From: Paraspadella gotoi
Lineage: Eukaryota > Animalia > Chaetognatha
Direction of reading: 5' to 3'
DNA: 64,000 nt
Assembly (NCBI GenBank): GCA_051294375.1
Contig: CM119269.1
Span: forward strand, 4,729,046 to 4,793,045
The notes below the pieces were generated by a model. The model had not been told where the DNA came from. It ran no database searches and saw only the letters and a program-made list of their open reading frames with translations. The position numbers and the translations under genes were made by a program. This document shows, one piece after another, positions 2,868-47,843 of this stretch (position 1 is its first letter; every line of letters begins with the position of its first letter).

Positions 2868-5276
2868 ATGGCGAGCGATACAACAGATTTTGGAACAACA
2901 TATTCTGCGACAGTAGGAATGGTTTATGTCTTTAACCTGATAGTTGGAACCGGAACACTCGCTTTGCCCGAAGCATTTGGCAATAGTGGATGGCTTATAA
3001 GGTAATGTTTTCATGATTTGAACAGGGGGTGTATATATCGTTTTAGAATATATAAAAAATCCAGACATAATTTAAGAAAAATAGTAAATCGTTTCATTTT
3101 TATTTTCCAGTTTAATTCTTATTGTGTTTCTTGCATTCACATCATATATGACAGTTACTTTTGTGGTTGAAAGTATGGCTTGCGCAAATGCTAAAGACCG
3201 TTGGATTAAAAGACAGGTAGCTTACGAATTTTTAACTAGTTTTGTTAAAAAAAATTTAATTATTAAAAAATAATTTTAGAAAATTAGAAAACGTAATCAA
3301 GGGGATGGTTTGCCCGAAATTCCTGTGGATCAGCTTAATGAACATTATGATATTAGAACCTCAAGAGAGGAAGTATCTACTGATACTGAAGACCAACCTT
3401 TGCTCGCTTCTCAGTCGAGGTAAGCTTTAGTTAAAATAAGCTCTAGTAATCATGTAATGCTGTAGAAAAGTTTTCAAAAGCTTTTAACTTCGATCAATGG
3501 TGTCAATATAGATATTTAAGAGCAACTTAGTCATTGACAGTCAATCATGAAAATGGATAATGTTTATTATCCGTATAGTAAATCAAATTCCGTTCTTTTG
3601 TTTGCATAATGTATACTGTATAGTAATATCTAATGAACCAGTGTTCGCAGCATAATATTTGTAAAATAAGGTGACCGTTTAACCCATCTCCATAAAAGTA
3701 ATAAATAATAATTAGCCGTTAATCTGGTTAGTAAGATTTTTAAAATTCTTAACTTTTTTAAGTATAATATCTAGCAAAGGAAAATTTATAGCGTTTTTAT
3801 AAATGTCGACTTAATTTCTTATACCATGGTTATTTTTGTCATATAGAATTCAAATTTCTGTACAGCTTCAAGAGACTTATTAAATTTCTTCACCTGGATA
3901 AATATTTTAAATTAAAAGATGATACGGAAATTCTGCCTTTGGATACCACACCTTGTTCAAAGAATTACTTTGATAATACAAAGAGCTCCCAAGATGTAGT
4001 TCCTTCGTGAGCATCATTATCATATATATTTATAGATATAGTAAAAATAAAAAACATTAGATTGGTATTAATTAGGGTCTGTTTAAATTTTCATTTCAGT
4101 ATTATTTTTTTCAAAACCTACATAAGTGGTGTAATAATGTTTTAGTTACCCTATCAAAGGTCTGGATCTTTTTTATCAGGCCATCGAGGCATAATGATAA
4201 TCGCTCTTTTTTAGTATGCTGGACAAAAATGATTATTATGACATCACCCAAAAAATGGAATTGGGAAAAATGGCTTCTATGTTTTATAACAAAGTTGGTC
4301 TTTATCTCTTTTATATTTGCATCATTGTATATTTGTATGGAGATTTAGGTATGCTTTTCCAAATTTAAGCCTTGTTAAATCTCAAAGCAATCGTTTATGG
4401 TTAAAATTTTACATTCACTGATTTGGATTTTTAATTTTTATTAGTAACCATACATAAAAATTTAATTATTTATAATTTTTAAAAATTTGTTTTTACTTAC
4501 CTAACCTTTGTTTAACCCTAAACTACCCATAGATTTTAAAAAAACCTTTTCCTTTATATTGTAAGATCAGGTAAATAAGATTTTTTTAAATGGTTAGTTG
4601 TGCTAAAGAAGCTGAGCTGCTGTTGTCTAATAGTTTAACCAGTATTCAAGTATTGAAAAATATTTAAAAAATATATTTGTTTTAGCGATATATGCTGCTG
4701 CTGTACCGAAATCATTGAGAGATGTTGTATGTACTTACGACCCAAATAACAAAACAAGCAGCAATAAGGTAATAAGGAAGTGTACTTTATTTTCTTATAA
4801 ATCTATTTAAAACATTTTAATTATAATTAGATATAAAATTGATAGTTTTAATTGGCGGAGTTTATTTAAACAGAGTCTGGAAGAATGGCAGCCATGTTTT
4901 CAATTTCGTCAAAATGGGTTGACGAGATTTCAAATGTATCAAGTATTTTTGACCGTATTTGTGGTTTGTTTGGTTCCTTTTACATTCTTCAATGTTCAAA
5001 AGACTAAATATCTTCAAATACTGACGACAGTGTTCAGGTATATATTTGGTGAAACCTTAAGGTTCGAGGTGCTTCACTCTTTCAGCCAATTACGTTTTTG
5101 TTTAAAAATTAATTATTACGATTGCTGACTTATTGAAATGTTACGTATTGGGTATAGTTAACTGCCCTACAAAATTTTTTTCAGTGAATAACGTTCATTT
5201 AAATTTTATATAATGCCTTTCAGGTGGTTGGCGTTTATCGTAATGATAACTCTGGCTTCAGTTCGACTATACACCG
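2868..5276 (+). CDS. TMEM104: TMEM104 (SLC38A12-like amino-acid transporter family), N-terminal ~271 aa; exons 2868-3001, 3111-3216, 3280-3419, 4215-4348, 4686-4768, 4874-5037, 5224-5276; 3' half not found in window
   Basis: All six introns are GT-AG with consistent phases (2,0,2,1,0,2). The spliced product MASDTTDFGTTYSATVGMVYVFNLIVGTGTLALPEAFGNSGWLISLILIVFLAFTSYMTVTFVVESMACANA...MELGKMASMFYNKVGLYLFYICIIVYLYGDLAIYAAAVPKSL...PFTFFNVQKTKYLQILTTVFRWLAFIVMITLA matches motifs I recall from TMEM104 (FNLIVGTG, YLYGDLAIYAAAVP, FTFFxVQKTKYLQ). Confidence 0.93.
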
Positions 5277-5728
5277 GTGCGTATGGACTTTATTTATTTC
5301 AATACATGATATTTTTTTTTTCAAAAAAAATGACGAATTCATGTACTGCATTGGTTAGTCACACAGAATAAACGAAGCAAACGTTTTTTTTGCGCTATTG
5401 AGTACGCTAGTTAAGTGTCCCGCTCCTTGTACTACTCACTGTTGCATAGTTACGCGATTTGTTTTCGTCAACGTTTGACAACAACAAACAACTTTAAATT
5501 TTGCTGTTAATGTGTTTATATAAACGTTTCGTGTTTATTTTATTTTTATTCCTCCGTTTTGAATTTTCGCGAATTATTTAAAACTTTTTTGGCTTTTGTT
5601 CATCGTCGACTTCCCAACGATTGCGAACAGGTAACTTCTTTAATAAAATTGCCATGATTTATCATTTTAATTGTTTTGTAGTATCGGCGGATACTACAGT
5701 TACATATTTGGGTGATTGAACCAGGGCC

Positions 5729-6239: not shown

Positions 6240-8862
6240 GTCCGGTACTTGTTTAATAAAGTCCTATTAAGTTATACGCGTTAATCGTTTCACACCTCAA
6301 ACATAAAAATTGTAATTAAAATAAATTTAAACTATTATTTATTATAAAATTTGTATTAACTGAACAATTCTGCAATCTGCAGCCTTCACGCAAGCAATTT
6401 AAGCGGATTGACTTAACCCAACCAAAGCATCAAAATCTGGGCTAAAGGGATGATGCATAATTGCATATCCGTATGGGCTGACATTGGCGGCAAGTTTATC
6501 CTAAAAAAGTAAAAAAATTAGGAGTGGCTAATAGTTTAATTTTAAAAGATAAGTAATTTAAATATAATACTGTAACCCATACAGCAAAATATCAACTGCA
6601 TTAATTTTTTATTACAAAAAGAATCATATCAAGCAGAGGTGAGTAACACGGTTGTTCTGAAGTTTCCACAGTTTCCAAGTTTTCCAGGAAAAGAAGGAAC
6701 TGACATTTATTTATGTTGCGCCTGGGAACCTGACATATCAATTTTTTTATAGTAAGTTGTCACTAAAGAAGTCGTGAAACAGAAATCAGGGTTATTTGTG
6801 GTATTAAAACTTTGTCTGGGTAAGAAACCGAATCATCTTATGATAAAAAAATGTTTTGCCTGAAGAGAGAGAATTTTTTCGAGCGATACCGAGTTCATAC
6901 CAACATGTTCGGAAGGCATTTTAAGCATTTTTAAACCCATTTTAATAAATGTTTTTAGCATTTCAAAACCAATGAATTTTGTGTTATATGGTATGATAAT
7001 ATCCTCTTAATGGATGGTAGTGTAGAAGACGAAAATAATAATAATAAAAGTGAGGAGAAGGTGAAGAATTGTAGGTAGGTAGATCACATATCATTAATTT
7101 TTACTTCATGTCAGTGGATTTAGCTAACGTGGTATATACATATGAAAATTTTAAATGTCAATTAGGAACGACATACCACCAAAGAACATTAATTTGTAAA
7201 AAAAATAATAATTTTATGTTCTTCAATTTTCGCAGTAGGCTATATTTATATATAGTACTATCCATAAAAATTTTAAAAACTATATTTAATATATAAAATT
7301 TTAATTTTCAGCGTAAAATATAGGGTTTNNNNNNNNNNGTTGAATTTAAAATTTTTATTATGCTTTAGTAAACACTTCTTCCAGCAGCTTTCCATTACAT
7401 TTCAAAGGGGAAACGCTCACCTTCTAATAAACCGAGACCACAGAACTCAATAACTTACCATCAAAGCTTATCAGCATCTTTCCGAAAATACACAATATAC
7501 ACTAAATATATTTAAATACATAAATACACATTACAAGCAGCAAAAAAATTATGTTAAATTGCTCAATCTTTCATCACTCCACCCTACTCTATAATGAAAC
7601 ACCGTTGATGCCCTACGTTTAATTGCCTTTTCTTTCTAAAAATTATCTTTCTAACAATTATCTAATTCCAATTATAAATAATAATAACATTAACAAACAC
7701 TATTTGCTTTTTGTCTGCCCCCTCGTAAATCGACAACAATTCACGGCTCTTTTGTCTCTTTTCTTCGTCTCCTTCTGCTTAACATTTACTTTTCTTTCTC
7801 TTCTCCTTCTTCATCTGCTTCTTCTGCTTAACATTCAGTTTTCTCTCTCTACTTCTCGTTCATGACTCAGACTCTGTTAGTCTGGAAAGGAAAAGAGACC
7901 GAAAACAACTCTCGCCACAGCGAATTTTCTGTTTCTCACGAACATATTAAATTATTGTCTTTTCTTTCTCTGTCCAGGAAAAAATAAAGAAAAACACTTC
8001 ATTTTGTATTCGTCGCGTATTTTTTATTACCTTCGGACAATTTTACATTGAATTCGGACCTAATTCTCGTCGAAAGTTATGGATAATTAAATAAGTGCTA
8101 AAATAATCTTAAAAAAAAAGTAAATTCATTATGATTACCGAATTTTGAGGCTTTTATAATAAACTTTGGCTTATTTTTACATTCGCCGACCGAGATTTTG
8201 CTGTCGGTTTATTAGGACCCGCCGGTCCGTCCTTCTCCTAAAACGCCCCCGAGAATATTCGAAGAATTATCAAAATTATTATTTAAACACTCAAAAGAAT
8301 TACAAAATTCAGTATAAACTCAAAAACCAATGAATAAACTAAAGCACGAATGACGAAATGATCCAAACGATGAATCCTTGTGATGATATAAAGTTCGAAC
8401 TCAGATATCACGATTCGCGAGTCTTTGTATCTAACATTAAATGTTGGCCAATTACCATACAATCGCTTAACTTTCAATTCACCGAATGCATAATATTGTT
8501 GTTTCTCGTTTTTATTTCAGAAAAAAAAGTTTGAAGAGAGAAAAAAGAAAAAAAAAGGGAGAGAAAAAGAGTCTAAAAATATTTGTTTTACAAATCAATT
8601 CGTTTTTGCGCTGATGAAAGCTTACAATGAAGCTGAAACATGTCAGAAATTTATGTTTCTTTATAAAACTCGTACGTAAACAAACAAATTTTTATGTTTT
8701 ATCCAGTTAAAATTAGAAAACTAAAACTTGTGTACAGTAATTATATGATGAATGATAATGATGATGATTTTAAGGGTTTTTTCCCTATTTAACCCACTTA
8801 TCATCAAAATATTAAAAAACGAATTGTGTTTTTTTTTTTTCTTTCGTTTCGTTGTGATTTGA

Positions 8863-9243
8863 TTTAGAACAAAGTTTGAAGAGAGATTTAACAACGATTT
8901 TTATTTCATAGTGAAACGGACATGTTTTCCGACTCACATACGAGTCTTCTTCAGCGCCATTCAATTTGTGAATTTGAAGAGAATTTGTTGCACAAACTAT
9001 CTCTGTCCTCCACCTTCACCTGTCCCTAATAAAAAAACTGAACACTATCCTTTCTCTCAAACCTCTGTGTTGGAAACTTTGCTCTGTCTCTCTCTCTCTC
9101 TCTCTCTTTCTTTAGGCACAAAATTCTCTTCAAATTCACAATTGAATTGGCGCTGAAGAAGACTCGGTATGTGAGTCGAAACATGTCCGTTTCACTATGA
9201 AATAAAAATCGTTGTTAAATCTCTCTTCAAACTTTGTTCTAAA
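8863..9243. repeat. Fold-back palindrome with ~125-bp inverted arms and a ~125-bp loop
   Basis: tttagaacaaagtttgaagagagatttaacaacg... (8863) is the reverse complement of ...cgttgttaaatctctcttcaaactttgttctaaa (9243). It is absent from the other two copies of this segment. Confidence 0.85.
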
Positions 9244-10242
9244 AAACGAATTATAATTTGTTACATAACTTTTTATGGGGCTATCTGAATATTTTTTCAT
9301 TGCTTATTCATTGATAAATATTTAAATAATTTAATTTAGACTGTGCTTCACTAGTTAAAAAAAATGATAGTAATATTGATTAAGTATATGATGGACAAAT
9401 GTATTTGATATTACAAAACTCTTAATGTAAAAAGTGATAAATTTTTTGCCCGCCTATCGTTCGGTCGGTCCGTCACTCAAAGTCGCCTGACAACTTCATT
9501 TCCAGTCAAAAGCAGTATGCGACTTAAAATGAACCACCAATTGAAGTTGTTTTTTTTTTTTTAAATTTCGACCAGTTACGCGTCATAGAAGCAAAGACAG
9601 CAGCAATAAAAAACACGTCCTCTCGAGAAAGTTTTCGGTCTTCCTAATTTATTTCTAACTTTCTTTAATTCATGATAAATTGATAAGTCATGAAGAAATT
9701 TTTTGTTCGATTTCAATTGAGACAAAATAAGAATTATAAAACGGAAACATTGCGAAAACACCATTTGCAGAATTACGGAGTTAAAAAATTAAGCTAAATC
9801 GTAATACGTAATACTAATTATAACCCGTGAGCCAAATTCACTGACACGAAACAAATCATTGTTAGGTTTACTGCATCGAGATAAACGTAATCCTGTTTTG
9901 TTTTTTTTTTTTTTTTTGATAGATAAAAGATGCTGGATATTCTTTCTGATAAAAATTTTATTCAAAAAGATATAGTATATTAATAACTTAAAATAATTTG
10001 TTTTATATATTTTGGGCTTTATTGACCTTTATTGACAATGACAGGTCCAAAAACGCAATCACTTTCTAAGTATTGAGAGAGAGACGTTAGGAGATCTGTT
10101 ATCGAAAATCCGCGGCCGAAATTGAACCAAAATATTTTGAAGTAACAGGAATGACGCTTCGAGGTTCGGTCACAGAAAAGGAAAAAAAAGCGAAAAGTTA
10201 TGTATGTAGTCGGGCATTGCCAAGGTTTACCCCTTCAGTTGT

Positions 10243-10475
10243 GACCAGGTGGCTCATTGAGTAAAGCCATCATCTCATGACCACAAGGTACCTGTTTCAA
10301 TCCCAACCTGGTACCTACCCTGCGGGAAGAGTGAGGACGGCCGTAAGCCGCCTCGGGGGCGTGGCAAGCCCTCAAGCCTGGTTCCAAGCCCAGGACCCGT
10401 TCCATGTCTGCGAGAGCGGGTTATAGAAGTTATGGATAGTCATCTTCTGCCCACTTAGCGCCAATATCCACATGT
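10243..10475 (+). mobile_element. tRNA-derived SINE-like element (copy 1)
   Basis: tRNA-like head with A-box TGGCTCAttGAG and B-box GTTTCAATCC, followed by a GC-rich body (gtgaggacggccgtaagccg...) in an AT-rich background. Confidence 0.6.
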
Positions 10476-10816
10476 TCGGTTTTAAAGGTAAATAAATGAA
10501 ATTAAGTGTCTGGTCACAAATTATCATTCGATTTCGATGCCAATTGTACGACTTTTTATAAGAAAGAAACTTTGGTGGATTCATTATCAAAGTTTTAATA
10601 TTAATTTGTTTACAAAAAAAATCATTCCATATAAGAAGCGTTAAATAATTCATTTATTATTCGCTCATTCATTATTAATATAATGTGATTTGTTATTTAT
10701 TGCTTTCCCCTTAGTTATCAAGAGCTATTAATTATCATAAGATAGGTATTGCGTTTTATAAGTTAACGATTTGTTAGTGGTGACTGTTCTTTGTTGTATT
10801 CCTCTTCTATCTGGTA

Positions 10817-11274
10817 CAGTGTAGGCGTGAAAAAAAAACGGTTAATTTTAAAAATTTTAATTATTGGTTAAAATGCTAAAATTTAACTGGTTAACCGTTA
10901 AAACCGTTAAAAACGGTTAATTTGCCAATCATTTTAATGATAAAAATAAGTAACAAAAAATATTTTTTTATTTTCAATAAAAATGAATTAACGTTTTTTT
11001 TTCTAATTAAAATAAATTCATAGTTTGAAATTAAAAATTATTTTTCACTTTTAATACTTACATATATAATCTAAAATAAGGGAAAAAAGTTTTGAGAAAT
11101 AGTTGACAGCCTTGCAAAGGAAAACCATAGTACTTAAAACAAATAAAAGTTTAAATTAGTAAATTTTAAAATTAACAGGTTAATTTTACCAAATTAACCG
11201 ATAGGTTAAAATCATTTTTAATCGGTGATTAACGGTTAACCGTTAATCGATTAAAACGCCTCGTCCCACCCCTG
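10817..11274. mobile_element. Non-autonomous DNA transposon/MITE, TA-flanked, with subterminal TTAACCG/CGGTTAA arrays (copy 1)
   Basis: ta|CAGTGTAGGCG ... CCCACCCCTG|ta imperfect terminal inverted repeats; many ttaaccg motifs clustered at both ends; AT-rich core. Confidence 0.6.
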
Positions 11275-11545
11275 TAAATAGCGTTAGAGCATCCCTGTCG
11301 GATAAAAAACAGATTCTGGTAGAAATAAATAAAAAATATTATTACAAGATTTTCTTTCGTTTGTCTTAACATTTTTTTTCTCTTTTAACTTTTTCTTTTT
11401 TTTTCCTTTTTCTTTTTTTCCTTTTTCTCTTTTCCCTCCTTTTCCTTTCCTTTTCTCCGCCAGCGGTTTTTCTTATTTCACAGTCAATTTGATGCTTCGG
11501 CGGCGGAATTTGGAAGCCAAAAAGAAGGTCGCGATCGAGAGGAGG

Positions 11546-11630
<85 letters not shown>

Positions 11631-11947
11631 TATGAAAAGATGAAAACGGAGAAACATATTAGAAGATTAGTAGATTAGAAATGCGAACAGATTTTCATTC
11701 AAAATAATATTGTTATGTATCTTTTCAGGAGCGGATGAACCCGTCAAAACATATGAAGAATCCTAACTGAATGCGACTGTCGCTCGCTCGTCTTTTGATA
11801 GTCTTTTTTTTTGGGGGGGGGGGGGGGGTTGGCAGAAGGAGGTTTTTCGTTGCACAAGAGAATCGTTTTAAGGTATGGAAAAAAAAGATGTTTTGTTCCT
11901 TAGAGAAAAAAACGATCCAGTTCCGTTGACGATCTGGGCGTTTAGAA

Positions 11948-12023
<76 letters not shown>

Positions 12024-15000
12024 CAATGATATTAACATTATCATTATCATTACATCTTATAGAAAACAATAGCACAACAAGGGAATAAAATTCTATTTTT
12101 ATTTTATTTATTTTTATTTTTATATCTAATTCTATTCTAAATTAAATTTCCAGTTTTATAAAGAAACATAAATTTCTGACATGTTTCAGCTTCATTGTAA
12201 GCTTTCATCAGCGCAAAAACGAATTGATTTGTAAAACAAATATTTTTAGACTCTTTTTCTCTCCCTTTTTTTTCTTTTTTTCTCTCTTCAAACTTTTTTT
12301 TCTGAAATAAAAACGAGAAACAACAATTTAATGCATTCGGTGAATTGAAAGTTAAGCGATTGTATGGTAATTGGCCAACATTTAATGTTAGATACAAAGA
12401 CTCGCGAATCGTGATATCTGAGTTCGAACTTTATATCATCACAAGGATTTATCGTTTGGATCATTTCGTCATTCGTGCTTTAGTTTATTCATTGGTTTTA
12501 GAGTTTATACTGAATTTTGTAATTCTTTTGAGTGTTTAAATAATAATTTTGATAATTCTTCGAATATTCTCGGGGCGTTTTAGGAGGAGGACGGACCGGC
12601 GGGTCCTAACAAACCGACAGCAAAATCTCGGTCGGCGAATGTAAAAATAAGCCAAAGTTTATTAAAAAAGCCTCAAAATTCGGATAATCATAATGAATTT
12701 ACTTTTTTTTTAAGATTATTTTAGCCTTATTTAATTATCCATAACTTTCGACGAGAATTAGGTCCGAATTCAATGTAAAATTGGTCCGAAGGTAATAAAA
12801 AATACGCGACGAATACAAAATGAAGTGTTTTTCTTTATTTTTTCCTGGACAGAGAAAGAAAAGACAATAATTTAATATGTTCGTGAGAAACAGAAAATTC
12901 GCTGTGGCGAGAGTTGTTTTCGGTCTCTTTTCCTTTCCAGAACTAACAGAGTCTGAGTCATGAACGAGAAGTAGAGAGAGAAAACTGAATGTTAAGCAGA
13001 AGAAGCAGATGAAGAAGGAGAAGAGAAAGAAAAGTAAATGTTAAGCAGAAGGAGACGAAGAAAAGAGAAAAAGAGCCGTGAATTGTTGTCGATTTACGAG
13101 GGGGCAGACAAAAAGCAAATAGTGTTTGTTAATGTTATTATTATTTATAATTGGAATTAGATAATTGTTAGAAAGATAATTTTTTAGAAAGAAAAGGCAA
13201 TTAAACGTAGGGCATCAACGGTGTTTCATTATAGAGTAGGGTGGAGTGATGAAAGATTGAGCAATTTAACATAATTTTTTTTGCTGCTTGTAATGTGTAT
13301 TTATGTATTTAAATATATTAGTGTATATTGTGTATTTTCGGAAAGATGCTGATAAGCTTTGATGGTAAGTTATTGAGTTCTGTGGTCTCGGTTTATTAGA
13401 AGGTGAGCGTTTCCCCTTTGAAATGTAATGGAAAGCTGCTGGAAGAAGTGTTTACTAAAGCATAATAAAAATTTTAAATTCAACTTATATAAAAAAAAAC
13501 CCTATATTTTTATGCTGAAAATTAAAATTTTATATATTAAATATAGTTTTTTTAAATTTTTATGGATAGTACTATATATAAATATAGCCTACTGCGAAAA
13601 TTGAAGAACATAAAATTATTTTTTTTTTTTACAAATTAATGTTCATTGGTGGTATGTCGTTCCTAATTGACATTTAAAATTTTCATATGTATATACCACG
13701 TTAGCTAAATCCACTGACATGAAGTAAAAATTAATGATATGTTGATCTACCACCTACAATTCTTCACCTTCTCCTCACTTTTATTATTATTATTTTCGTC
13801 TTCTACACTACCATCCATTAAGAGGATATTATCATACCATATAACACAAAATTCATTGGTTTTGAAATGCTAAAAACATTTATTAAAATGGGTTTAAAAA
13901 TGCTTAAAATGCTTCCGAACATGTTGGTATGAACTCGGTATCGCTCGAAAAAATTCTCTCTCTTCAGGCAAAACATTTTTTTATCATAAGATGATTCGGT
14001 TTCTTACCCAGACAAAGTTTTAATACCACAAATAACCCTGATTTCTGTTTCACGACTTCTTTAGTGACAACTTACTATAAAAAAATTGATATGTCAGGTT
14101 CCCAGGCGCAACATAAATAAATGTCAGTTCCTTCTTTTCCTGGAAAACTTGGAAACTGTGGAAACTTCAGAAACAACCGTGTTACTCACCTCTGCTTGAT
14201 ATGATTCTTTTTGTAATAAAAAATTAATGCAGTTGATATTTTGCTGTATGGGTTACAGTATTATATTTAAATTACTTATCTTTTAAAATTAAACTATTAG
14301 CCACTCCTAATTTTTTTACTTTTTTAGGATAAACTTGCGCCAATGTCAGCCCATACGGATATGCAATTATGCATCATCCCTTTAGCCCAGATTTTTGATG
14401 CTTTGGTTGGGTTAAGTCAATCCGCTTAAATTGCTTGCGTGAAGGCTGCAGATTGCAGAATCAATTTCTTAGAAAGTGATTGCGTTTTTGGACCAGTCAT
14501 TGTCAATAAAGGTCAATAAAGCCCAAAATATATAAAACAAATTATTTTAAGTTATTAATATACTATATCTTTTTGAATAAAATTTTTACAGAAAGAATAT
14601 CCAGCATTCTTTTATCTATCAAAAAAAAAAAAAAAAAAAAAAAAAAAAGATTACGTTTATCTCGATGCAGTAAACCTAACAATGATTTGTTTCGTGTCAG
14701 TGAATTTGGCTCACGGGTTATAATTAGTATTACGTATTACGTATGACGATTAGCTTAATTTTTTAAACTCCGTAATTCTGCAAATGGTGTTTTCGCAATG
14801 TTTCCGTTTTATAATTCTTATTTTGTCTCAATTGAAATCGAACAAAAATTTTCTTCATGACTTATCAATTTATCATGAATTAAAGAAGTTAGAAATAAAT
14901 TAGGAAGACCGAAAACTTTCTCGAGAGGACGTGTTTTTTTATTGCTGCTGTCTTTGCTTCTATGACGCGTAACTGGTCGAAATTTAAAAAAAAAAACAAC

Positions 15001-15516
15001 TTCAATTGGTGGTTCATTTTAAGTCGCATACTGCTTTTGACTGGAAATGAAGTTGTCAGGCGACTTTGATGACGGACCGACCGAACGATAGGCGGGCAAA
15101 AATTTATCACTTTTTAATCATTAAGAGTTTTGTAATATCAAATACATTTGTCCATCATATACTTAATCAATATTAACTATCATTTTTTTAAACTAGTGAA
15201 GCACAGTCTAACATTAAATTATTTAAATATTTATCAATGAATAAGCAATGAAAAAATATTCAGATAGCCCATAAAAAGTTAATGTACACAAAATTATAAT
15301 TCGTTTTTTAATATTTTGATGATAAGTGGGTTAAATAAGGGAAAAACCCTTAAAAATCATCATCATTATCATCATCATATATATGTACCACAAGTTTTAG
15401 TTTTGCTAATTTTAACTTATAAAACAAAAAAATGTGAAAAATCTTGTAATAATATTTTTTATTTATTTCTACCAGAATCTGTTTTTTATCCGACAGGGAT
15501 GCTCTAACGCTATTTA

Positions 15517-15975
15517 CAGGGGTGGGACGAGGCGTTTTAATCGATTAACGGTTAACCGTTAATCACCGATTAAAAATGATTTTAACTCTATCGGTTAATT
15601 TGGTAAAAATTAACCTGTTAATTTTAAAATTTACTAATTTAAACTTTTATTTGTTTTAAGTACTATGGTTTTCCTTTGCAAGGCTGTCACTATTTCTCAA
15701 AACTTTTTTCCCTTATTTTAGATTATATATGTAAGTATTAAAAGTGAAAAATAATTTTTAATTTCAAACTATGAATTTATTTTAATTAGAAAAAAAAACG
15801 TTAATTCATTTTTATTGAAAATAAAAAAAATATTTTTTGTTACTTATTTTTATCATTAAAATGATTGGCAAATTAACCGTTTTTAACGGTTTTAACGGTT
15901 AACCAGTTAAATTTTAGCATTTTTAACCAATAATTAAAATTTTTAAAATTAACCGTTTTTTTAACGCCTACACTG
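15517..15975. mobile_element. TA-flanked MITE (copy 2)
   Basis: ta|CAGGGGTGGGAC ... GCCTACACTG|ta; reverse complement of 10817-11274. Confidence 0.6.
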
Positions 15976-16317
15976 TACCAGATAGAAGAGGAATACAACA
16001 AAGAACAGTCACCACTAACAAATCGTTAACTTATAAAACGCAATACCTATCTTATGATAATTAATAGCTCTTGATAACTACGGTGAAAGCAATAAATAAC
16101 AAATCAGAAGAGATTAATAATGAATGAGCGAATAATAAATGAATTATTTAACGCTTCTTATATGGAATGATTTTTTTTGTAAACAAATTAATATTAAAAC
16201 TTTGATAATGAATCCACCAAAGTTTCTTTCTTATAAAAAGTCGTACAATTGGCATCGAAATCGAATGATAATTGGTGACCAGACACTTAATTTCATTTAT
16301 TTACCATTAAAACAGAA

Positions 16318-16539
16318 CATGTTGATATTGGCGCTAAGTGGGCAGAAGATGACTATCCATAACTTCTATAACTCGCTCTAGCAGACATGGAACGGGTCCT
16401 GGGCTTGGAACCAGGCTTGAGGGTTTGCCAGGTCCCCAAGGCGGCTTACGGCGTCCTCACCTTCCCGCAGGTAGGTACCAGTTGGATTGAAACAGTACCT
16501 CGTGGTCATGACTGATGGCTTACTCATGAGCCACCGGTC
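16318..16539 (-). mobile_element. tRNA-derived SINE-like element (copy 2)
   Basis: Reverse complement of 27200-27420. Confidence 0.6.
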
Positions 16540-16933
16540 ACAACTGAAAGAGTCATGCTGTAGGTGACGTCAAAAGAGTGCAGAAATTTTGTTACTTTTG
16601 AAAACATGGCTCAATTAATTTAATAAGCCATTTTATTTTTTTCCATCGATAGCTCAAAATTGCAAAAGACTTTAATTCTTGATAAAGATAGAGTAAACAC
16701 CATCCGTTTACTTATTTCAATAGATTTAAAGTCACACTCGATTTGGTCAACAACTTTCGAAGTATGTATCATGTTACTTATAGGCGGTGTAAACCTTGCA
16801 ATGCCCGACTACATACATAACTTTTCGCTTTTTTTCCTTTTCTGTGACCGAACCTCGAAGCGTCATTCCTGTTACTTCAAAATATTTTGGTTCAATTTCG
16901 GCCGCGGATTTTCGATAACAGATCTCCTAACGT

Positions 16934-17009
<76 letters not shown>

Positions 17010-17317
17010 AAACGCCAGATCGTCAACGGAACTGGATCGTTTTTTTCTCTAAGGAACAAAACATCTTTTTTTTCCATACCTTAAAACGATTCTCTTGTGC
17101 AACGAAAAACCTCCTTCTGCCAACCCCCTCCCCCCCCCCCAAAAAAAAAGACTATCAAAAGACGAGCGAGCGACAGTCGCATTCAGTTAGGATCTTCATA
17201 TTTTTTGACGGGTTCATCCGCTCCTGAAAAGATACATAACAATATTATTTTGAATGAAAATCTGTTCGCATTTCTAATCTACTAATCTTCTAATATGTTC
17301 TCCGTTTTCATCTTTCA

Positions 17318-17401
<84 letters not shown>

Positions 17402-18985
17402 CCTCCTCTCGATCGCGACCTTCTTTTTGGCTTCCAAATTCCGCCGCCGAAGCATCAAATTGACTGTGAAATAAGAAAAACCGCTGGCGGAGAAAAGGAA
17501 AGGAAAAGGAGGGAAAAGAGAAAAAGGAAAAAAAGAAAAAGGAAAAAAAAAAAGAAAAAGTTAAAAGAGAAAAAAAATGTTAAGACAAACGAAATGGAAA
17601 TTTAATTTAGAATAGAATTAGATATAAAAATAAAAATAAATAAAATAAAAATAGAATTTTATTCCCTTGTTGTGCTATTGTTTTCTATAAGATGTAATGA
17701 TAATGATAATGTTAATATCATTGTAAAAGTGCTTTTAGATAAAAAAAACAAAAAAAAACAAACAAACAACAAAAAAAAAAAAAAAAAAAGANNNNNNNNN
17801 NNNNNNNNNNNNNNNNCAACTAGTGAATCGGGTGATCACTGATCAGGCTGGTGAAACAGGCAGTAAAGGATGCTAACAGAAAAGAGAAACAAGCAGTGAA
17901 GGGGGCGAACATACAGTGAAGGTGGAACGAAATGGTGAGACAAAAAGAATTGGTTGAAGAAAAAAGGGAGTGAAAAAGTCGGAGAATTTGAGAGGCAAAT
18001 CTCCAACCTTAATTTCACGACGTTATTCGTAGCTTTCGTCTTTGCTCCCTGATTGCTTCTCTTTCAAATCAGCTTTCGTTGCAATTTAACATCAGACCAA
18101 ACAAGTTTGCTTCGAGATTTGCAGTTTTTCTTAAAGGAGAGTGAGATGAATGGCGAGCCGATGCAAAATATGTTTCCGACTGGGTACGTGTTTTAAAGGC
18201 TGCAAAAGGGACGACAAAATTACTCATGCGACGATCTCTTGCACTCAATAACTCGTATATGCGACTCTGGATGTAGCAGGCGGCCTGGGAGAAGTTCGGT
18301 TGGGAGGCGCGACTCGAGTTCGCCGTACGCGAAATTGAGTCGAGCGCCCTCTGCTCGAACACGCTTGTTAGCAGGACGCACGCCGCGCGGATGCCGCCCA
18401 CGCTGGGCATGGTCCTCCCTCGGGACCGACGGGGCTTGTAGAGCTATATATTGGAAAGCGCCGTTCTGTCACACGGGACTAAAACTGACATAGAGAAAAA
18501 TTATCGTGTTCTGTCGTCCGTCGTTGCCGCTCTTCTGCCTTTCTCTCAGAATGCAGGTGTGTGTGATAGTAAGCGAGTGAGTATCGTATAAATATAGGCC
18601 TATATCCGGATTAATTAAAGTTCACCAGAGATTATTGGAAGTCGTATCTTTGTTGAAATTGAGTTTTTTGTAAAAAAACCGTTATCTTTCGGTATATTAG
18701 GCGGTTTTGAGTGCGGTTTAGCCGCGGTTCTGTAGATTATATTGTAAAAGAATTGAGGATGCTCGGTATTAGATCAGTCTTAGGATAAATGTAGGATATT
18801 CAAAAGTGAAACGATTAACAGCGTATAAGGACCTTCATTTCTGCAATAGGGCACTTATACTAGTACTAATAAATGAATGTCACGTAACGATCTCATGCGA
18901 AGGGATAGCAGACGTCGTCGGTTATCGTCAACCGCTGTGAGAGCACTGTGTGCTACTCCTTACAGCTCGATCGAAGAAGGGTCAT

Positions 18986-19762: not shown

Positions 19763-22700
19763 GAACGGAGCGGGATTTCTCTCTCAGCTCTGCCTGCTAT
19801 AATTATTAATACGCCCTTAGACATCATATAACGCCTATCTACATATGAGAACGCGTCACTCAGAGAAAAAAATATAATATAATCATTTTGACATAAAAAG
19901 ATTTGACACGGAGTATTAAGTTTATATTTCGTTGAAGAGGGGCGAGAATGAAAGCAGCTGGCGAATAACAGTCGTACGTCAGGCTAGGGAGAGAGAGAGA
20001 GATGCGCGCGTACAATTCGCGCGCTTTAGAGGCACTGCTATAGCGAAGAACCGCGAGGATGAGAACCTTGTAGAGACGCAAAGGACGTGTTTGGGAGGAT
20101 TCTTCACACAGGGCGAAGCGGAAGAAGTCCCATCGAGGAGGAGCAGAAGAGCAGAGGCTAAAGTAAACAGATGAGGAGAGAGGGAAGAGAGAAGAGAGAG
20201 AGTTAGGAATGCCAGATTGGAAACAACAGGAAAAAAAAGAGACAAGGCCACAGGCAGAGCAGAGAAGCAGAGAGAGATAATATGTGATTGTCAAATGTGA
20301 AATTGAGAGTTTTTAGACGACGAGACCGCAGATCGACTTTGATCTCAGAGAAAGAGGAAGCAAGGCGTCGAAGAGACCGGAGTCTCAATTAATGTCCGTT
20401 TGCATCGACATTGATGAGTAGGTTAAATAATGAAACAAAAGCACCGGACAAGAGACGTAGAAAGGGTCGACAAAATGATACGAGAGAACTCAGCGAGAAG
20501 ACAGTCTCAGAGAGCACATTTCTGTTCAGACATACCATTGAGACGCCAAAATGTCCGTAAAAGGATTACTTCGAGCGAGAGTCGAACATATAGCGGGTTA
20601 CTACAAGAAAGTTAGACGTGCTAGCCATGAATGAGATAAAACACTTGTTGAGGTATGCGAACACGGGGCGACGAATTCACTACTAGTGTATGGCGAGCAA
20701 TGTAACACGAATGATAATCAGATAAACAGACACACTGGTTCTAATTATAAAGACCACGAATCTTAGCCCTGTTCGTGGCAAATCGCTGTGGGGCCTCATA
20801 AGTCGACTATGTGAACAACAAAGTCCTAAATAAAGTTTATCAAATAATGGTCTCGTCGGCTGGGAAAAAATTATCCAAAGACGGGGAGGGAATATATATA
20901 TATACAAATATAAGCACGAACAAGTTTTACCTATAAACACCCATTAACGAGCAAAATGTTAGACAGTTGGTTTAGTTGTGCTCCGTTCCCGCAAACCGAT
21001 GGTACGGTAATAATAACAAATTCTGGCCGGGTCAACTATGGAGGCAACAATGTGAGTAGTGAGCAAGGAGCGGGGAGAAGCTACCCTTAACTAGTCGTCA
21101 TCTCATGTAGGCAGCAAAATAAAATATATATAAAACCTCACGTTTTTGCTTCGTTTATTTCCTGTTGGTGGTATATTTAGTGGCTGATAATCCAAATGGC
21201 TAGGTATCGAGGGGTGGGAATCGTCCGGTTACGCCTTTATTTTTTGGAATAAAAAAAAATATCAGTTGGTAAGCTGAAAATCACAATAAAGGTCCAATAC
21301 GTCACCATGAGAGAGTATATAGTGCGCCTGAACTCGTGCGAAGGCTCGCCAAGGTGGATAATATGAATGTACGATAGGGAACCGCACACCGACAAATAGG
21401 CAACGTAGGAAGGGACAATATTAATATAAAACTGATAAATTATGAACGGATATTGCATGCACCTGAAAAAAGAAGTTGGTAGGGCGCTATGTTACGACAT
21501 ATAACCGCAAAACACGAAGTTAGGTAACATGTCAGATAAATGAAAGGCGAGTAGCAATCGGGGTGAATAAGAGAATTTACAAAGACGATCGAAAGTGGGC
21601 TGAGAAAGAAGTGAAAAAGCCCAAGTCACGTGCTGAGGTCGAACGCTTAAAGGTTTCACCAAAAATATAGAGCGTCTGCGGTGAACAAATGTCGTCGCAG
21701 ATATTTTGGAAGAATATTTAGTCATTTTATGGAGGAACATTGAAGAGAGATAAATACAGAGGAAACCAGCAACAAACATACAAAGATGTAAAGCAGGATA
21801 TAACATATACTTATATTACAGATTTGAAATCTCAGTCGCACGACCATTTCGCACGATTGGGAAAAAACGAAGGGCGCCGTGATAAGCATCTGCCAGACTC
21901 TTGCAGTTGTAACATGATTTAAACCATCCCAAGGGCCACATGTATCAATATGAAAGCGTATATGCAATTGTTTATTATCTCATTGTAGTATAATGTTAAA
22001 CGGAGCGGGCAAATGGAATTGTTTTAAAAAGAATAAAACAGAAAGATAAGAGAGGATAGCGTCTTATCACCTTCATTGACCTTATTGCTGGGCTCTGTTT
22101 TGTTATTTTTGCTGTTCGTAAGGTTAAATACACTATACATACATCTTTGCTCAATGAAATTTCGGTACATTCACTTGTGTTCAAGCATGGCCTATATTAT
22201 CTGCTTATAGAGAGAAAACCAAATGTTAGTAACTTTCTTTTAAATATTATTTCCCAATAACTTGGGAATTTACTGGCTGTGTTGAGACGATCCTATTTGA
22301 GCATAGACCAGCACTCCAGATCGCTATTAAGCGATGAGTACGAACTCCACAAAGAGCAATGTTTTGAGACAAAAAAATCATTAGTAACACTTGAATCGTA
22401 TCACCAATAGAAGGAGGAAGTTTTTAATAACCAACTATCGGGAGTAGAAAATATTCTAGGTTAAACAGAGGAAGGGGTTAGCAGCGTTATATGAGAAATC
22501 GTGAGGAGGCAACTCTTATATTATAAACATTACTCAAGTAATATAAAATTTTTGTATATGTATGGTTACTGTAATACCAGCCAAACTATCTCCCCATAGC
22601 GCAAATAATCAGTGAGAGCACGTAGCTTAATAACTCTTATACACGGCATAAACCGATCTGGCTTTGGAGAGATTTAAACAAAGGGGACTTCTCTGGAAAA

Positions 22701-25424
22701 GCATTATCCTAATATTCTCCCACTAACAAATAAACACAATGATGCAAAAATAATAAATGAGAGTTAAAGAAATAAAAACCACTTTGTTATATGGAAAACC
22801 GATAGGACCACATTGTTTCCCATTCCATTTGTTAGATAATGTCATTATCCCTATCATATCATCTGTATTTGCTTCCGCTAGCATACCTAGAAACAAGATA
22901 CCGAGCGGATTATAACTCTATATTATGCCATGACGATGGCTCTCCTTTCGGGAGAAGTCCTCACCAGAGGAAAAAGAGATCCCATGACCTTGTAATATAT
23001 GTGGTAAGATATGCAGCATCAGCCACTCTTATCATACAAACCACTTAATTATGAGGTTTTCTTGTAATAGAGAGACAATTATTACTCATCTCCTGAATTA
23101 TGATATATTTTATACTCGAAATAGCGCTCAGAGTACTCATAATTTAATTTTTCATCCTACATACTAAATGTAATATATCTAGGCTATTTAGGTATTAGAA
23201 TCTAATAAATCTACAGTAATAACTAATAAGTACTTGATTAATTGATGCCTTGCACGACAGGAATCTACACTCTTGAGTACGCGCTTCTGTTTATACTTTC
23301 ATCAACTACACGTAATTATTTCTCTTTGAACACAAGCGTGTCGTATCTCCAAACGCAGAGTCTCATCCGTTACTCCATCTTCTCTCAATTTACATACATA
23401 TTTCTCTATAGCTCTCAGGTGACGCAATTTAATAAGTCTCGGTGAAATGTCTGTGTACATCATGACAACATCGTGAAGATTCTATATGAACAGAGCAAAT
23501 TTACATCTCTACTGTGTCACTTCACTAAAGAAAATGCGTAAAGTCGGACCAATCTTATCAAAACCGCCTATATAAAGTGTTCTTCTCTCTTGCTAGATAT
23601 TATTCATATTCTAAAAAAGTTACATCGATCACTTTTTATGACAAATCTTAAGCTATACCAGATTTACACGGCTAATCTGAATTATCTCCTATTCTACCTT
23701 CTTATGTGCAGATGGGATTACTACACCTGGTCTCACCTTACTCTCTCTACAAATATTACTTCGCTGTCCGACTACACTGGTTCATTAGATATATAGACTA
23801 TCACCCTATAGTCGATCATCCACATTATATGCTCTAAACTAAAAAGTATCGCGTATATTATGTATTTCCTTATAAGCCGGACTGGAATAAACATACTTCA
23901 CAGACTCGCCACTTTTTTCATGATTGACTAGTCAATTGCTAAGCTCAGGGCTCTAATATTATCTGATATTCGAGACACAGCACCAATTAATGATCGACGA
24001 GTAAAAGATCTCTGAGGAGAGAACGGTATTTCGCTGAGAAACAGCATTCCAAAGGAGCTTACTTAAGATTGTCTCCTTTTATCAACTATAAGTCTTATCC
24101 TTCTGTATCTGAGAAGCGATGTCTAATGGTTGGTCTTCTATGTATCTTGTAGATACTTTTCCTGCTCTCTCTTTGTTAGGTTTCTTATATAATCATTAAC
24201 TGTTTCATTTTTATAGTCTGAATCGCACAGGAATTTTCTTGCACACACCATCCGGCGCGCGTGATTAATCGTTTCTTTCCTCAGATTTTCATAAAAATTC
24301 GATTTTTTCATACATGAATTCTTTTTCTAGAGCACAACGCTTCAGTTAAATAGAGTTCGTTAAGCTGATCCGCGTGTCTGTCGTAAATCCAATCGTCTTT
24401 GTCAGACTTCTGCCGCAAACGCCATACTTTAGTCTATAACACCTCACAAAAAGGTAACTGTCCATAGTTTACAGCTCACTCCCCAGAGATATCATGCACA
24501 AGTGGGGAAAACGAAAAAAAGATGGAATCGAACAAAAAGTCGCGTAAAATATGATGTGAAATAAGCAGAGGGAAAGCACAATAAAAGATACTTAAACTTT
24601 GGAAAGATAAAAAATGAAACGAAAAATATAATACTAATGTTTGTCACAATTATAAATTTATTGTTCTTGTGTAATAGATTATTGCCCTATATAGGCATAG
24701 CTAAAGAAGGGAGAAAGAACGAGAGAAGTGAATAGCAACCCCCAATGTCTCAAAATCATGAGAAAACATAGGATCTACCGACCAAATTATATATAAGCAA
24801 GCCATCCACTATTTATGCCGCAAATGACTTATAGCGCGGAGCAAGTATGTAAAAGAGACGAAGATAGATAACACAGGCGGGATATGAAACTAAAGTAACA
24901 AGAGGGTAAAGACATAAAGCCAATATGCACACTGACTGTGAGCAAACGGGACCCGAAAATGGACTGTTGGAAAAGCCAAGGAGATGTCTGCATGCTAGTT
25001 TCTTTGCTTATCTCAGGAGCAATCGATTCGGCGGAAGTCGGCGGAGAGGTAGCGAGAGAAAACAGACGAAGCGGCGGAAGGAGGAGGCGGCGGACCCCGA
25101 GGAGGAAGGGAAATCCACAAGCGAAAAGACAAGAGAAGGGAAAAACAGTGCAGGGGAATGAAACAAGTTGGTGAATGCAGGGCCAAACAGACAGGTGAAA
25201 TAAAGCAGCCGAACAGGAGGGCCAGAGACAAGCTTAATGGGAGGAAAGCACATAAGTCAGCAGGAAGGGGGATCGAACCAGTAGAATGGTAAACTAAGCA
25301 GGCAAAAAGAGAGCAAAGAAATAGTAAGTGGGAAGACAACTAAGTGAAATCGGGGGGTGGATCACTCGGATTCAGCGCTGGCTTGTGAAAGCAGNNNNNN
25401 NNNNNNNNNNNNNNNNNNNAAGGA

Positions 25425-25745: not shown

Positions 25746-26336
25746 TGGTGAGACAAAAAGAATTGGTTGAAGAAAAAAGGGAGTGAAAAAGTCGGAGAAT
25801 TTGAGAGGCAAATCTCCAACCTTAATTTCACGACGTTATTCGTAGCTTTCGTCTTTGCTCCCTGATTGCTTCTCTTTCAAATCAGCTTTCGTTGCAATTT
25901 AACATCAGACCAAAACAAGTTTGCTTCGAGATTTGCAGTTTTTCTTTTTTTTTTTTTTTTTTTGTTTGTTTGTTTGTTTTTTTTTGTTTTTTTTTATCTA
26001 AAAGCACTTTTACAATGATATTAACATTATCATTATCATTACATCTTATAGAAAACAATAGCACAACAAGGGAATAAAATTCTATTTTTATTTTATTTAT
26101 TTTTATTTTTATATCTAATTCTATTCTAAATTAAATTTCCATTTCGTTTGTCTTAACATTTTTTTTCTCTTTTAACTTTTTCTTTTTTTTTTTTTCCTTT
26201 TTCTTTTTTTCCTTTTTCTCTTTTCCCTCCTTTTCCTTTCCTTTTCTCCGCCAGCGGTTTTTCTTATTTCACAGTCAATTTGATGCTTCGGCGGCGGAAT
26301 TTGGAAGCCAAAAAGAAGGTCGCGATCGAGAGGAGG

Positions 26337-26423
<87 letters not shown>

Positions 26424-26728
26424 AGATGAAAACGGAGAACATATTAGAAGATTAGTAGATTAGAAATGCGAACAGATTTTCATCAAAATAATATTGTTAT
26501 GTATCTTTTCAGGAGCGGATGAACCCGTCAAAAAATATGAAGATCCTAACTGAATGCGACTGTCGCTCGCTCGTCTTTTGATAGTCTTTTTTTTTTTGGG
26601 GGGGGGGGAGGGGGTTGGCAGAAGGAGGTTTTTCGTTGCACAAGAGAATCGTTTTAAGGTATGGAAAAAAAAGATGTTTTGTTCCTTAGAGAAAAAAACG
26701 ATCCAGTTCCGTTGACGATCTGGCGTTT

Positions 26729-26806
<78 letters not shown>

Positions 26807-27199
26807 CGTTAGGAGATCTGTTATCGAAAATCCGCGGCCGAAATTGAACCAAAATATTTTGAAGTAACAGGAATGACGCTTCGAGGTTCGGTCACAGAAA
26901 AGGAAAAAAAAGCGAAAAGTTATGTATGTAGTCGGGCATTGCAAGGTTTACACCGCCTATAAGGCATGATCATACTTTCGACAGTTGTTCGACTCATACG
27001 AGTGTGCTTTATCTACGTTGAAAAAATGTAAAGGTGTTGGTTTTTACTTTTCTATCTTTTGATCAGATTAAGTTCTTCAACATTAGACTATCGAATCGAA
27101 AAATGGTTTATATAAAAATAAAATGTGAGCCCTGTTTTGTCAAGTAACAAAAACGGGCACCTATTTGCGTCACCTACTAAGCATGACTCTTTCAGTTGT

Positions 27200-27420
27200 G
27201 ACCGGTGGCTCATGAGTAAGCCATCAGTCATGACCACGAGGTACTGTTTCAATCCAACTGGTACCTACCTGCGGGAAGGTGAGGACGCCGTAAGCCGCCT
27301 TGGGGACCTGGCAAACCCTCAAGCCTGGTTCCAAGCCCAGGACCCGTTCCATGTCTGCTAGAGCGAGTTATAGAAGTTATGGATAGTCATCTTCTGCCCA
27401 CTTAGCGCCAATATCAACAT
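27200..27420 (+). mobile_element. tRNA-derived SINE-like element (copy 3)
   Basis: GACCGGTGGCTCATGAGTAAGCC...GTACTGTTTCAATCCAACTGGTACC tRNA-like head (A and B boxes) plus GC-rich body. Confidence 0.62.
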
Positions 27421-27762
27421 GTTCTGTTTTAATGGTAAATAAATGAAATTAAGTGTCTGGTCACCAATTATCATTCGATTTCGATGCCAATTGTACGACT
27501 TTTTATAAGAAAGAAACTTTGGTGGATTCATTATCAAAGTTTTAATATTAATTTGTTTACAAAAAAAATCATTCCATATAAGAAGCGTTAAATAATTCAT
27601 TTATTATTCGCTCATTCATTATTAATCTCTTCTGATTTGTTATTTATTGCTTTCACCGTAGTTATCAAGAGCTATTAATTATCATAAGATAGGTATTGCG
27701 TTTTATAAGTTAACGATTTGTTAGTGGTGCTGTTCTTTGTTGTATTCCTCTTCTATCTGGTA

Positions 27763-28222
27763 CAGTGTAGGCGTTAAAAAAACGGTTAATTTTAAAAATT
27801 TTAATTATTGGTTAAAAATGCTAAAATTTAACTGGTTAACCGTTAAAACCGTTAAAAACGGTTAATTTGCCAATCATTTTAATGATAAAAATAAGTAAAC
27901 AAAAAATATTTTTTTATTTTCAATAAAAATGAATTAACGTTTTTTTTTCTAATTAAAATAAATTCATAGTTTGAAATTAAAAATTATTTTTCACTTTTAA
28001 TACTTACATATATAATCTAAAATAAGGGAAAAAAGTTTTGAGAAATAGTTGACAGCCTTGCAAAGGAAAACCATAGTACTTAAAACAAATAAAAGTTTAA
28101 ATTAGTAAATTTTAAAATTAACAGGTTAATTTTTACCAAATTAACCGATAGAGTTAAAATCATTTTTAATCGGTGATTAACGGTTAACCGTTAATCGATT
28201 AAAACGCCTCGTCCCACCCCTG
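27763..28222. mobile_element. TA-flanked MITE (copy 3)
   Basis: Same termini and subterminal repeats as 10817-11274. Confidence 0.6.
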
Positions 28223-31200: not shown

Positions 31201-31585
31201 TTAAACACTCAAAAGAATTACAAAATTCAGTATAAACTCTAAAACCAATGAATAAACTAAACACGAATGACGAAATGATCCAAACGATAAATCCTTGTGA
31301 TGATATAAAGTTCGAACTCAGATATCACGATTCGCGAGTCTTTGTATCTAACATTAAATGTTGGCCAATTACCATACAATCGCTTAACTTTCAATTCACC
31401 GAATGCATTAAATTTGTTGTTTCTCGTTTTTATTTTCAGAAAAAAAAGTTTGAAGAGAGAAAAAAAGAAAAAAAAGGGAGAGAAAAAGAGTCTAAAAATA
31501 TTTGTTTTACAAATCAATTCGTTTTTGCGCTGATGAAAGCTTACAATGAAGCTGAAACATGTCAGAAATTTATGTTTCTTTATAA

Positions 31586-31620
<35 letters not shown>

Positions 31621-37268: not shown

Positions 37269-37309
<41 letters not shown>

Positions 37310-39890: not shown

Positions 39891-39990
39891 CTAATGATAA
39901 AAAAATGTTTAATTCTGAGTAGCCTTTTCCCTCAAATCCCATGGAACCCATCCTTCTCCATCCCATCGACTCAACCCACCCCCCACCCAC

Positions 39991-47676: not shown

Positions 47677-47843
47677 GNNNNNNNNNNNNNNNNNNNNNNN
47701 NNTCAAGCTAACATCAGCGGTCATACCTCTGGACAACTCAGCTCCCATCCCCTAACGCACCTTAAGACAGCTTGATCACTCACTCCGCCACAACCATCCA
47801 CCCTTCTTCCTTCAAACCACCCTTCTTGCATCCCCCTACCCAC

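What the first reader, a model, noticed from the sequence alone, without database searches (positions are those of the whole stretch)
6367..17790. Tandem duplication in which every block is inverted in place
Seen: 6367-12151 reads [A][S5S6][S3S4][S2][S1] and the adjacent 12153-17790 reads [A'][S6'S5'][S4'S3'][S2'][S1']. The blocks come in the same order but each 0.13-2.3-kb block is individually reverse-complemented, with no N-gaps at the block junctions. Copy 1 also carries substitutions not shared with copies 2 and 3 (e.g. caccaaAgaac vs caccaaTgaac; cgatGaatcc vs cgatAaatcc; several in the SINE), so it looks like another haplotype or molecule. This is the same geometry that scrambles the Ig exons. 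Inference: systematic contig order or orientation error is most likely. The alternative is a real multi-block inversion process (germline vs soma, or between haplotypes). I found no convincing shared recombination site or pointer at the junctions.
Basis: partly seen in the sequence, partly recalled or inferred. Interest (0 to 1): 0.72.

Follow-up and report, generated by a model that had tools for sequence, protein, structure and literature searches.

The report
Assembly error mimicking blockwise inversion
The same 5.6-kb piece of animal DNA appears three times in this assembly, once chopped into six blocks that each face backwards, but independent sequencing data cover it at about single-copy depth and leave the backwards version at every block joint that was examined, so it is very likely a software error rather than a real rearrangement.

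Summary
The geometry is real in the assembly: 6294-12152 holds six blocks of a 5.6-kb unit in exactly reversed order on one strand; 12153-17791 and 25943-31588 hold the unit intact. It is very likely not real DNA. Contigs of four public runs laid on 2500-11395 give the unit 0.80, 0.95 and 0.99 times the depth of the neighbouring single-copy gene. No listed piece crosses a copy-1 joint. Full-depth contigs run on into other sequence at 6293 (two samples) and 6367. The blocks tile the intact copy with 0-10 bases lost, with no pointers, spacers or shared sites. The window shows other assembly damage: five 25-N gaps, a raw chimeric long read, and Ig exons out of order. Most likely a scaffolding or gap-filling step reversed a list of short-read pieces without reverse-complementing them, and long-read fills added copies 2 and 3; the program is not identified. 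Limits: contigs, not raw reads; 75 of 90 joints hidden; the two right-hand joints untested.

The parts
2868..5277 (+).
   Evidence: Six GT..AG splice joints in run X8 (table 5); exon 1 hits PF01490 at E=0.0011, below the curated cut-off; X1 contigs at depth 100.2 and 102.9
6294..6366 (+).
   Evidence: X1 record 2 and X5 record 22 stop matching at 6293 with 62 and 23 further letters; joints 8683-8687 -> 6294 in X1, X2, X8, from repeat-family contigs
6367..8687 (+). Copy 1 block A (= 29276-31588), short-read quality, 10 N inside
   Evidence: X1 contigs match with 0-2 other letters; X1 record 3 has 165 letters before 6367 that do not fit 6202-6366
8685..10074 (+). Copy 1 block S5 + 414-bp insert + S6 (= 28304-29275)
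   Evidence: S5 has 18 private substitutions in 142 columns; insert has inverted ends 8863-8986 / 9121-9243
10075..11354 (+). Copy 1 block S3 + S4 (= 26805-28302, lacking 26955-27190)
   Evidence: X2 record 13 leaves copy 1 at both ends of S3; X1 record 8 carries copy-2/3 letters at 9 of 11 private sites with no gap
11355..12021 (+). Copy 1 block S2 (= 26142-26804), ends in a GA microsatellite
   Evidence: not tested with reads beyond 11395
12022..12152 (+). Copy 1 block S1 (= 26011-26141), identical in all three copies
   Evidence: not tested with reads
12153..17791 (-). Copy 2: intact unit, reverse complement of copy 3, likely a long-read fill; ends at a 25-N gap
   Evidence: 97.96% to copy 3, differences almost all indels
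17817..18132 (+). Piece P' (= 25628-25946), which abuts the unit in copy 3 but is flipped in place here
19779..25394 (.). Raw, chimeric long-read-like sequence between copies 2 and 3
   Evidence: Reverse copy of about 3047-5850 at 1.53-fold length; also pieces of 34617-34791, 32913-33040 and 25421-25672
25943..31588 (+). Copy 3: intact unit in likely true block order S1-S2-S3-S4-S5-S6-A; ends at the same base of A as copy 2 and joins a GA run

Best explanation
This is very likely an assembly artefact: one locus, likely single-copy, is written three times, and copy 1 likely arose when a scaffolding or gap-filling step reversed the order of a list of short-read pieces without reverse-complementing each piece. 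Shown: reversed order on one strand, near-perfect tiling of the intact copy, about single-copy contig depth, and contigs that leave copy 1 at the joints examined. Inferred: copies 2 and 3 are two long-read consensus extensions from the same reads (shared indels, same end base, 25-N gaps of the kind that PBJelly-type fillers leave); the repeats inside copy 1 were partly spelled from other family members or the other allele. The program and the exact step are not identified.
For: Depth of unit contigs over control-gene contigs: X1 0.65-0.92 (6 contigs, mean 0.80), X2 0.59-1.41 (5, mean 0.95), X5 0.99 (1); three real copies would give about 3. None of the 32 listed contig pieces crosses a copy-1 joint. 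X1 record 2 (depth 102.9) and X5 record 22 (another sample) go on for 62 and 23 unlike letters after 6293. X1 record 3 (depth 88.3) is unbroken across 6367 with 165 unlike letters in front; 165 letters upstream of A in copies 2/3 fall 5-6 bases inside a long poly-T run, a natural contig end, whereas in the assembly they fall in ordinary sequence. X2 record 13 leaves copy 1 at 10075 and 10230. Joints 11349->8685 (X1, X2) and 8683-8687->6294 (X1, X2, X8) give the order S4-S5 and A-B0. Blocks tile copy 3 with 0, about 1 and 0-6 bases lost. No shared or inverted words at the breakpoints: mean longest shared word 6.9 over 28 pairs against 7.3 for 383 random pairs. Same fault elsewhere: P' flipped against copy 2, Ig exons out of order. 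Five gaps of exactly 25 N and a raw chimeric read. PMC3504050 (passages): gaps are runs of 25 or more N, shorter runs stay inside contigs, overfilled gaps are tied to inversions and assembly mistakes; PMC9635638 (passages): overfilling inflates and duplicates sequence.
Against: Only contigs were available, which drop rare variants; the tool warns that depth is no copy number. 75 of 90 joints and 59 of 71 between-letter rows were hidden, and the expected joint 10070->6367 is not among the rows shown. The two joints that give the true order come from multi-copy repeats (depth 1003.6; several different letters between), so they show the family's structure, not this locus. X1 and X2 are one sample. 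One paper search for this kind of bug found nothing relevant. What really follows 6293 is unknown: no RNA piece links the upstream genes to the unit.
Confidence: 0.8

Rival explanations
1. Still an artefact, but made at the bench: a chimeric library molecule (phi29 template switching or ligation) was read once and built into the assembly.
For: The window holds a raw read joined from four places in two orientations. Amplification makes direct and inverted chimeras (10.64898/2026.06.11.730069, passages). It predicts single-copy depth and no support in other runs, as seen.
Against: That paper gives inverted chimeras as up to 91%, whereas all five inner joints of copy 1 keep one strand. Each jump would have to end exactly where the previous block began. 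Unique parts of copy 1 are of short-read quality (0 gaps against contigs over 455, 248, 166, 615 and 426 bases) and hold a 10-N gap, unlike a raw molecule.
Confidence: 0.11
2. A real rearranged allele or duplicate private to the sequenced animal, made by one-off repair with several template switches.
For: Copy 1 has 67 private substitutions, a 414-bp insert and a 237-bp loss; site 10518 differs between two runs of one sample, so allelic variation exists here. Contigs cannot prove absence.
Against: Full-depth contigs pass 6293 and 6367 unbroken on another path; single-copy depth in two samples; perfect tiling in strictly reversed order; the same geometry breaks an Ig gene 30 kb away.
Confidence: 0.05
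3. A programmed multi-block inversion (germline versus soma, ciliate-style unscrambling, or a shufflon-like switch).
For: Only the geometry. Both forms lie side by side, and Ig exons elsewhere are also out of order.
Against: No pointers beyond 0-3 bases outside a microsatellite, no spacer DNA between blocks, no shared recombination site; no coding domain found in the unit (22 frames of 6576-10653 without a hit, 1 weak hit at E=0.036); no copy-1 joint in the listed contigs. Two searches with 'chaetognath' listed no paper on such a process in that group (listings only).
Confidence: 0.02

Closest known systems
Overfilled gaps and false duplications of long-read gap filling (PBJelly; PMC3504050, PMC9635638, PMC8848313, passages)
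   Same: Indel-rich duplicate sequence extending from contig ends up to an unclosed gap; 25-N gap threshold with shorter N runs kept inside contigs; tied to orientation errors of the input scaffold.
   Different: None of the passages I saw describes contigs written in reversed order without reverse complementation; that such fillers write exactly 25 N for unclosed gaps is recalled, not read. The program used here is unknown.
MDA (phi29) chimeras (10.64898/2026.06.11.730069, passages)
   Same: Pieces of one neighbourhood joined out of order; absent from other libraries.
   Different: Mostly inverted there; here five same-strand joints with exact tiling and short-read accuracy.
Scrambled genes of stichotrich ciliates (features recalled; PMC9797194 and PMC2394655 seen as search listings only)
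   Same: Blocks of one sequence in permuted order or orientation relative to an intact form.
   Different: No pointers, no intervening eliminated sequences, no gene rebuilt, no read support for the scrambled form; spliced animal-type genes in the standard code.
Shufflon / multiple-inversion systems (recalled)
   Same: Adjacent segments each inverted in place.
   Different: No repeated inverted recombination sites at block ends, no recombinase among the frames scanned.

Membership tests
Real tandem or segmental duplication | Read depth rises with copy number | tested here: not met
   Contig depth ratios 0.80, 0.95, 0.99 to the neighbouring gene; contig depth is a rough proxy
Real tandem or segmental duplication | New junctions spanned by independent sequence | tested here: not met
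   0 of 32 listed pieces cross a copy-1 joint within 2500-11395; contigs leave the path at 6293, 6367, 10075, 10230. Joints at 12021 and 12152 untested
Ciliate-type scrambled locus | Pointer repeats shared by consecutive blocks | tested here: not met
   Overlap 0-3 bases outside the GA run
Ciliate-type scrambled locus | Spacer (eliminated) DNA between blocks in the scrambled form | tested here: not met
   Blocks abut directly in copy 1
Ciliate-type scrambled locus | Different arrangement in germline and soma | not testable with these tools
   No tissue-resolved raw reads among the 9 runs listed
Shufflon-like multiple inversion | Shared inverted recombination sites at block ends | tested here: not met
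   Longest shared words no longer than random; the largest are T runs
Shufflon-like multiple inversion | Recombinase gene nearby | tested here: inconclusive
   No recombinase hit in 150 of 229 candidate frames scanned; split exons could be missed
Restriction-fragment (Hi-C bin) reshuffling artefact | Cuts at restriction sites | tested here: not met
   1 of 5 cuts printed lies at G^ANTC, none at GATC
PBJelly-type overfilled gap | 25-N gaps flanked by long-read-quality extensions that duplicate nearby sequence | tested here: met
   5 of 9 N runs are exactly 25 long; copies 2/3, 18986-19778 and the raw read flank them
PBJelly-type overfilled gap | Assembly log or pre-fill scaffolds naming the program | not testable with these tools
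   No genome or assembly record held
MDA chimera | Mostly inverted joints within a single long read | tested here: not met
   All five inner joints of copy 1 are same-strand; sequence is short-read quality

The most novel reading that the evidence does not exclude
An animal carries a real, cell-type- or allele-specific process that inverts a run of adjacent 0.07-2.3-kb blocks in place without pointers or recombination sites, and the same process scrambles an Ig-domain gene nearby; the runs laid here would then come from tissue or individuals with the unscrambled form only.
Probability: 0.03. Interest if true: 0.85.

Novelty: not a real feature. Interest (0 to 1): 0.05.

Why it matters
As biology it very likely does not matter. 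As a warning it does: this assembly can hold N-free block reversals, false triplications and raw chimeric reads, so claims of exon scrambling, duplications, gene fusions across gaps or missing exons on this scaffold need read support. If the novel reading were true it would be a pointer-free genome scrambling in an animal, which would be a major surprise.

Tried and rejected
Own-genome search: none held. Run search: 9 runs, all contigs; no RNA holder listed on record, though X8 behaved as RNA. Reads cover only 2500-11395, so the joints at 12021 and 12152 and copies 2/3 stay untested. Using the raw long read to see what follows 6293: its match to the gene fades at about 5850 and it is chimeric, so it cannot say. 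Model 'gene end joins flipped B0, then copy 2': fits the 62-letter contig overhang by arithmetic only; a 22-of-23 match at 18808-18830 to the reverse of 6272-6293 does not extend into B0 on either strand (198 and 286 of 300 shuffles score as well), so the model is unproven; the alternative, that the gene-bearing stretch is itself a displaced piece, is open. The exon that follows 5277 in RNA was not found in the window. Restriction-site cutting rejected (1 of 5). Solved-structure searches with the Ig exons: 0 hits and 11 hits at E 0.14-1.6, all antibody V domains, not significant. 79 of 229 candidate frames were not scanned against Pfam. Paper search for a 'reverse order, not reverse complemented' bug gave 1 irrelevant paper. 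PMC6240028 and PMC7757076 (passages) did not state the 25-N output convention. Earlier scan notes: none near this place, none with this geometry. Supplements were not consulted.
Full report
Observation. Self-comparison of the window shows three copies of a 5.6-kb unit. Copy 3 (25943-31588) and copy 2 (12153-17791, reverse strand) are collinear, 97.96% alike, and differ almost only by indels. Copy 1 (6367-12152) holds the same sequence as blocks A, S5S6, S3S4, S2, S1, each on the strand of copy 3 but in reversed order, which equals copy 2 with each block flipped in place. No N lies at a block joint. In three-way alignments copy 1 has 67 private substitutions and 42 private indel events, copy 2 has 1 and 16, copy 3 has 4 and 14.

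Anatomy of the joints. Put back in copy-3 order, the blocks tile the unit almost exactly: S1|S2 with no base lost or repeated, S4|S5 within about one base, S6|A within 0-6 bases, S2|S3 inside a GA run (74 + 10 bases against 70-72). There are no spacers between blocks and no pointers. Neighbourhoods of eight breakpoints share no more sequence than random places of the unit (mean longest word 6.9 over 28 pairs; null 7.3, 95th percentile 10, n = 383; the maximum, 12, is a T run). One of five cuts printed falls on G^ANTC, which chance allows. Exact tiling, strict reversal and one strand (p about 4e-5 if random) are what a program gives when it reverses a list of trimmed pieces and omits to reverse-complement them. 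This step is inference.

Independent sequence. No genome is held. Nine public runs hold the region, all as contigs. I laid X1, X2 (one sample), X5 (another sample) and X8 (behaves as RNA) on 2500-11395. Depth: contigs on the upstream single-copy gene have 100.2 and 102.9 in X1; six contigs in the unit have 65.7-93.9 (mean ratio 0.80); X2 gives 0.95 (five contigs, 0.59-1.41) and X5 0.99 (one contig). Three real copies would give about 3. The tool warns that depth is no copy number, so this is a rough proxy. Joints: none of the 32 listed pieces crosses a copy-1 joint. X1 record 2 and X5 record 22 match to 6293 and carry 62 and 23 further letters that do not fit (I read the side from records that end at the 10-N gap). 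X1 record 3, at depth 88.3, has 165 letters before 6367 that do not fit 6202-6366; in copies 2/3, 165 letters upstream of A fall just inside a long poly-T run, a natural contig end. An unbroken full-depth contig there argues against a common second path. X2 record 13 leaves copy 1 at both ends of S3 (13 and 29 letters, too short to exclude a branch). Joints 11349->8685 and 8683-8687->6294 give the orders S4-S5 and A-B0, and show a sixth block, 6294-6366; both come from repeat-family contigs, so they are indirect.

Why copy 1 differs. X1 record 8 matches S4 of copy 1 without a gap but has the copy-2/3 letter at 9 of 11 private sites; X1 and X2, one sample, differ at 10518. So copy 1 is right on indels where tested, copies 2/3 share indel errors, and some substitutions are likely allelic. 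But 54 of the 66 private substitutions within the laid bins fall in the 11 repeat-depth bins, block S5 has 18 in 142 columns, and 6367-6954 and 7549-8142 have none. Copy 1 thus looks like short-read sequence with repeats partly spelled from other family members or the other allele, and copies 2/3 like two consensus calls from the same long reads; both stop at the same base of A (8669/8670), 17 bases short of copy 1.

Context. Five of nine N runs are exactly 25 long. Between copies 2 and 3 lies raw long-read-like sequence: a reverse copy of the upstream gene at 1.53-fold length joined to pieces of 34617-34791, 32913-33040 and 25421-25672; contigs run across both ends of the gene piece, so this read is chimeric. 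17817-18132 abuts the unit in copy 3 but is flipped against copy 2. On the minus strand, an exon at 39991-40178 joins in frame to exons at 48945-49144 and 47840-48049 (GT/AG ends, no stop in 199 codons, C..W..DxGxYxC intact; Pfam V-set E = 1.4e-4 and C2-set_2 E = 0.047 for the second and third, both under the curated cut-offs), yet lies downstream of them across a sized gap: the same order fault. That these three exons belong to one gene is inferred from phase and motif, not from RNA.

Comparison with what is known. PMC3504050 (passages) defines gaps as 25 or more N, leaves shorter runs inside contigs, and ties overfilled gaps to inversions and assembly mistakes. PMC9635638 (passages) reports 28,377 overfilled gaps and new gene duplicates after such filling. 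PMC8848313 (passages) gives 88.6-95.2% identity for such fills on simulated reads. These fit copies 2/3 and the raw read. I found no paper on reversed order without reverse complementation, so the step that made copy 1 stays inferred. Amplification chimeras are mostly inverted (10.64898/2026.06.11.730069, passages), unlike the five same-strand joints. Ciliate scrambling and shufflons (features recalled) fail on pointers, spacers, sites and read support. Earlier notes of this scan call the genome an arrow worm (not tested here); two searches with that word listed no paper on programmed rearrangement in the group (listings only).

Verdict. Artefact about 0.9 in all (software 0.8, library chimera 0.11), real private allele 0.05, programmed process 0.02. 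Not a real feature; interest 0.05.

Noticed in passing
window 19779-25394: Raw, insertion-rich long-read sequence built into the assembly, chimeric for four places of the window in two orientations.
   Followed up: yes
window 39991-40178, 48945-49144, 47840-48049 (minus strand): Three Ig-domain exons that join in frame (V-set then C2-like); the first lies on the wrong side of the other two, across the 462-N gap.
   Followed up: partly
window 2868-5277: The transporter-type gene stops at 5277 in the window; RNA shows a further exon that is not in the window.
   Followed up: partly
window 5248-6245: A second spliced transcript (X8 record 29, 3563 letters) starts here and looks BTB-like by eye (no Pfam hit); 2797 letters of it have no listed place in 6294-11395.
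   Followed up: partly
window 8863-9243: Element with 124-bp inverted ends (96%), summed contig depth about 48,000-62,000 in X1: a high-copy MITE-like family, present in copy 1 only.
   Followed up: no
   Followed up: no
window 18986-19778: 96% duplicate of 33852-34641, differences mostly indels; likely another long-read fill.
   Followed up: partly
window 18808-18830: 22-of-23 match to the reverse of 6272-6293, ending exactly at the 6293 breakpoint; likely the end of a short repeat.
   Followed up: partly
window 31589: Copy 3 joins a GA run where composition shifts from about 30-35% to 40-55% G+C; possible misjoin of two unrelated regions.
   Followed up: no
window 35618-39931 (minus strand): Stop-free frame of 1437 codons in G+C-rich, trinucleotide-repeat DNA; low complexity, coding status unknown.
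   Followed up: no
window 54440-54650: Short G+C-rich tandem array with a period of about 9 bases, open in several frames.
   Followed up: no
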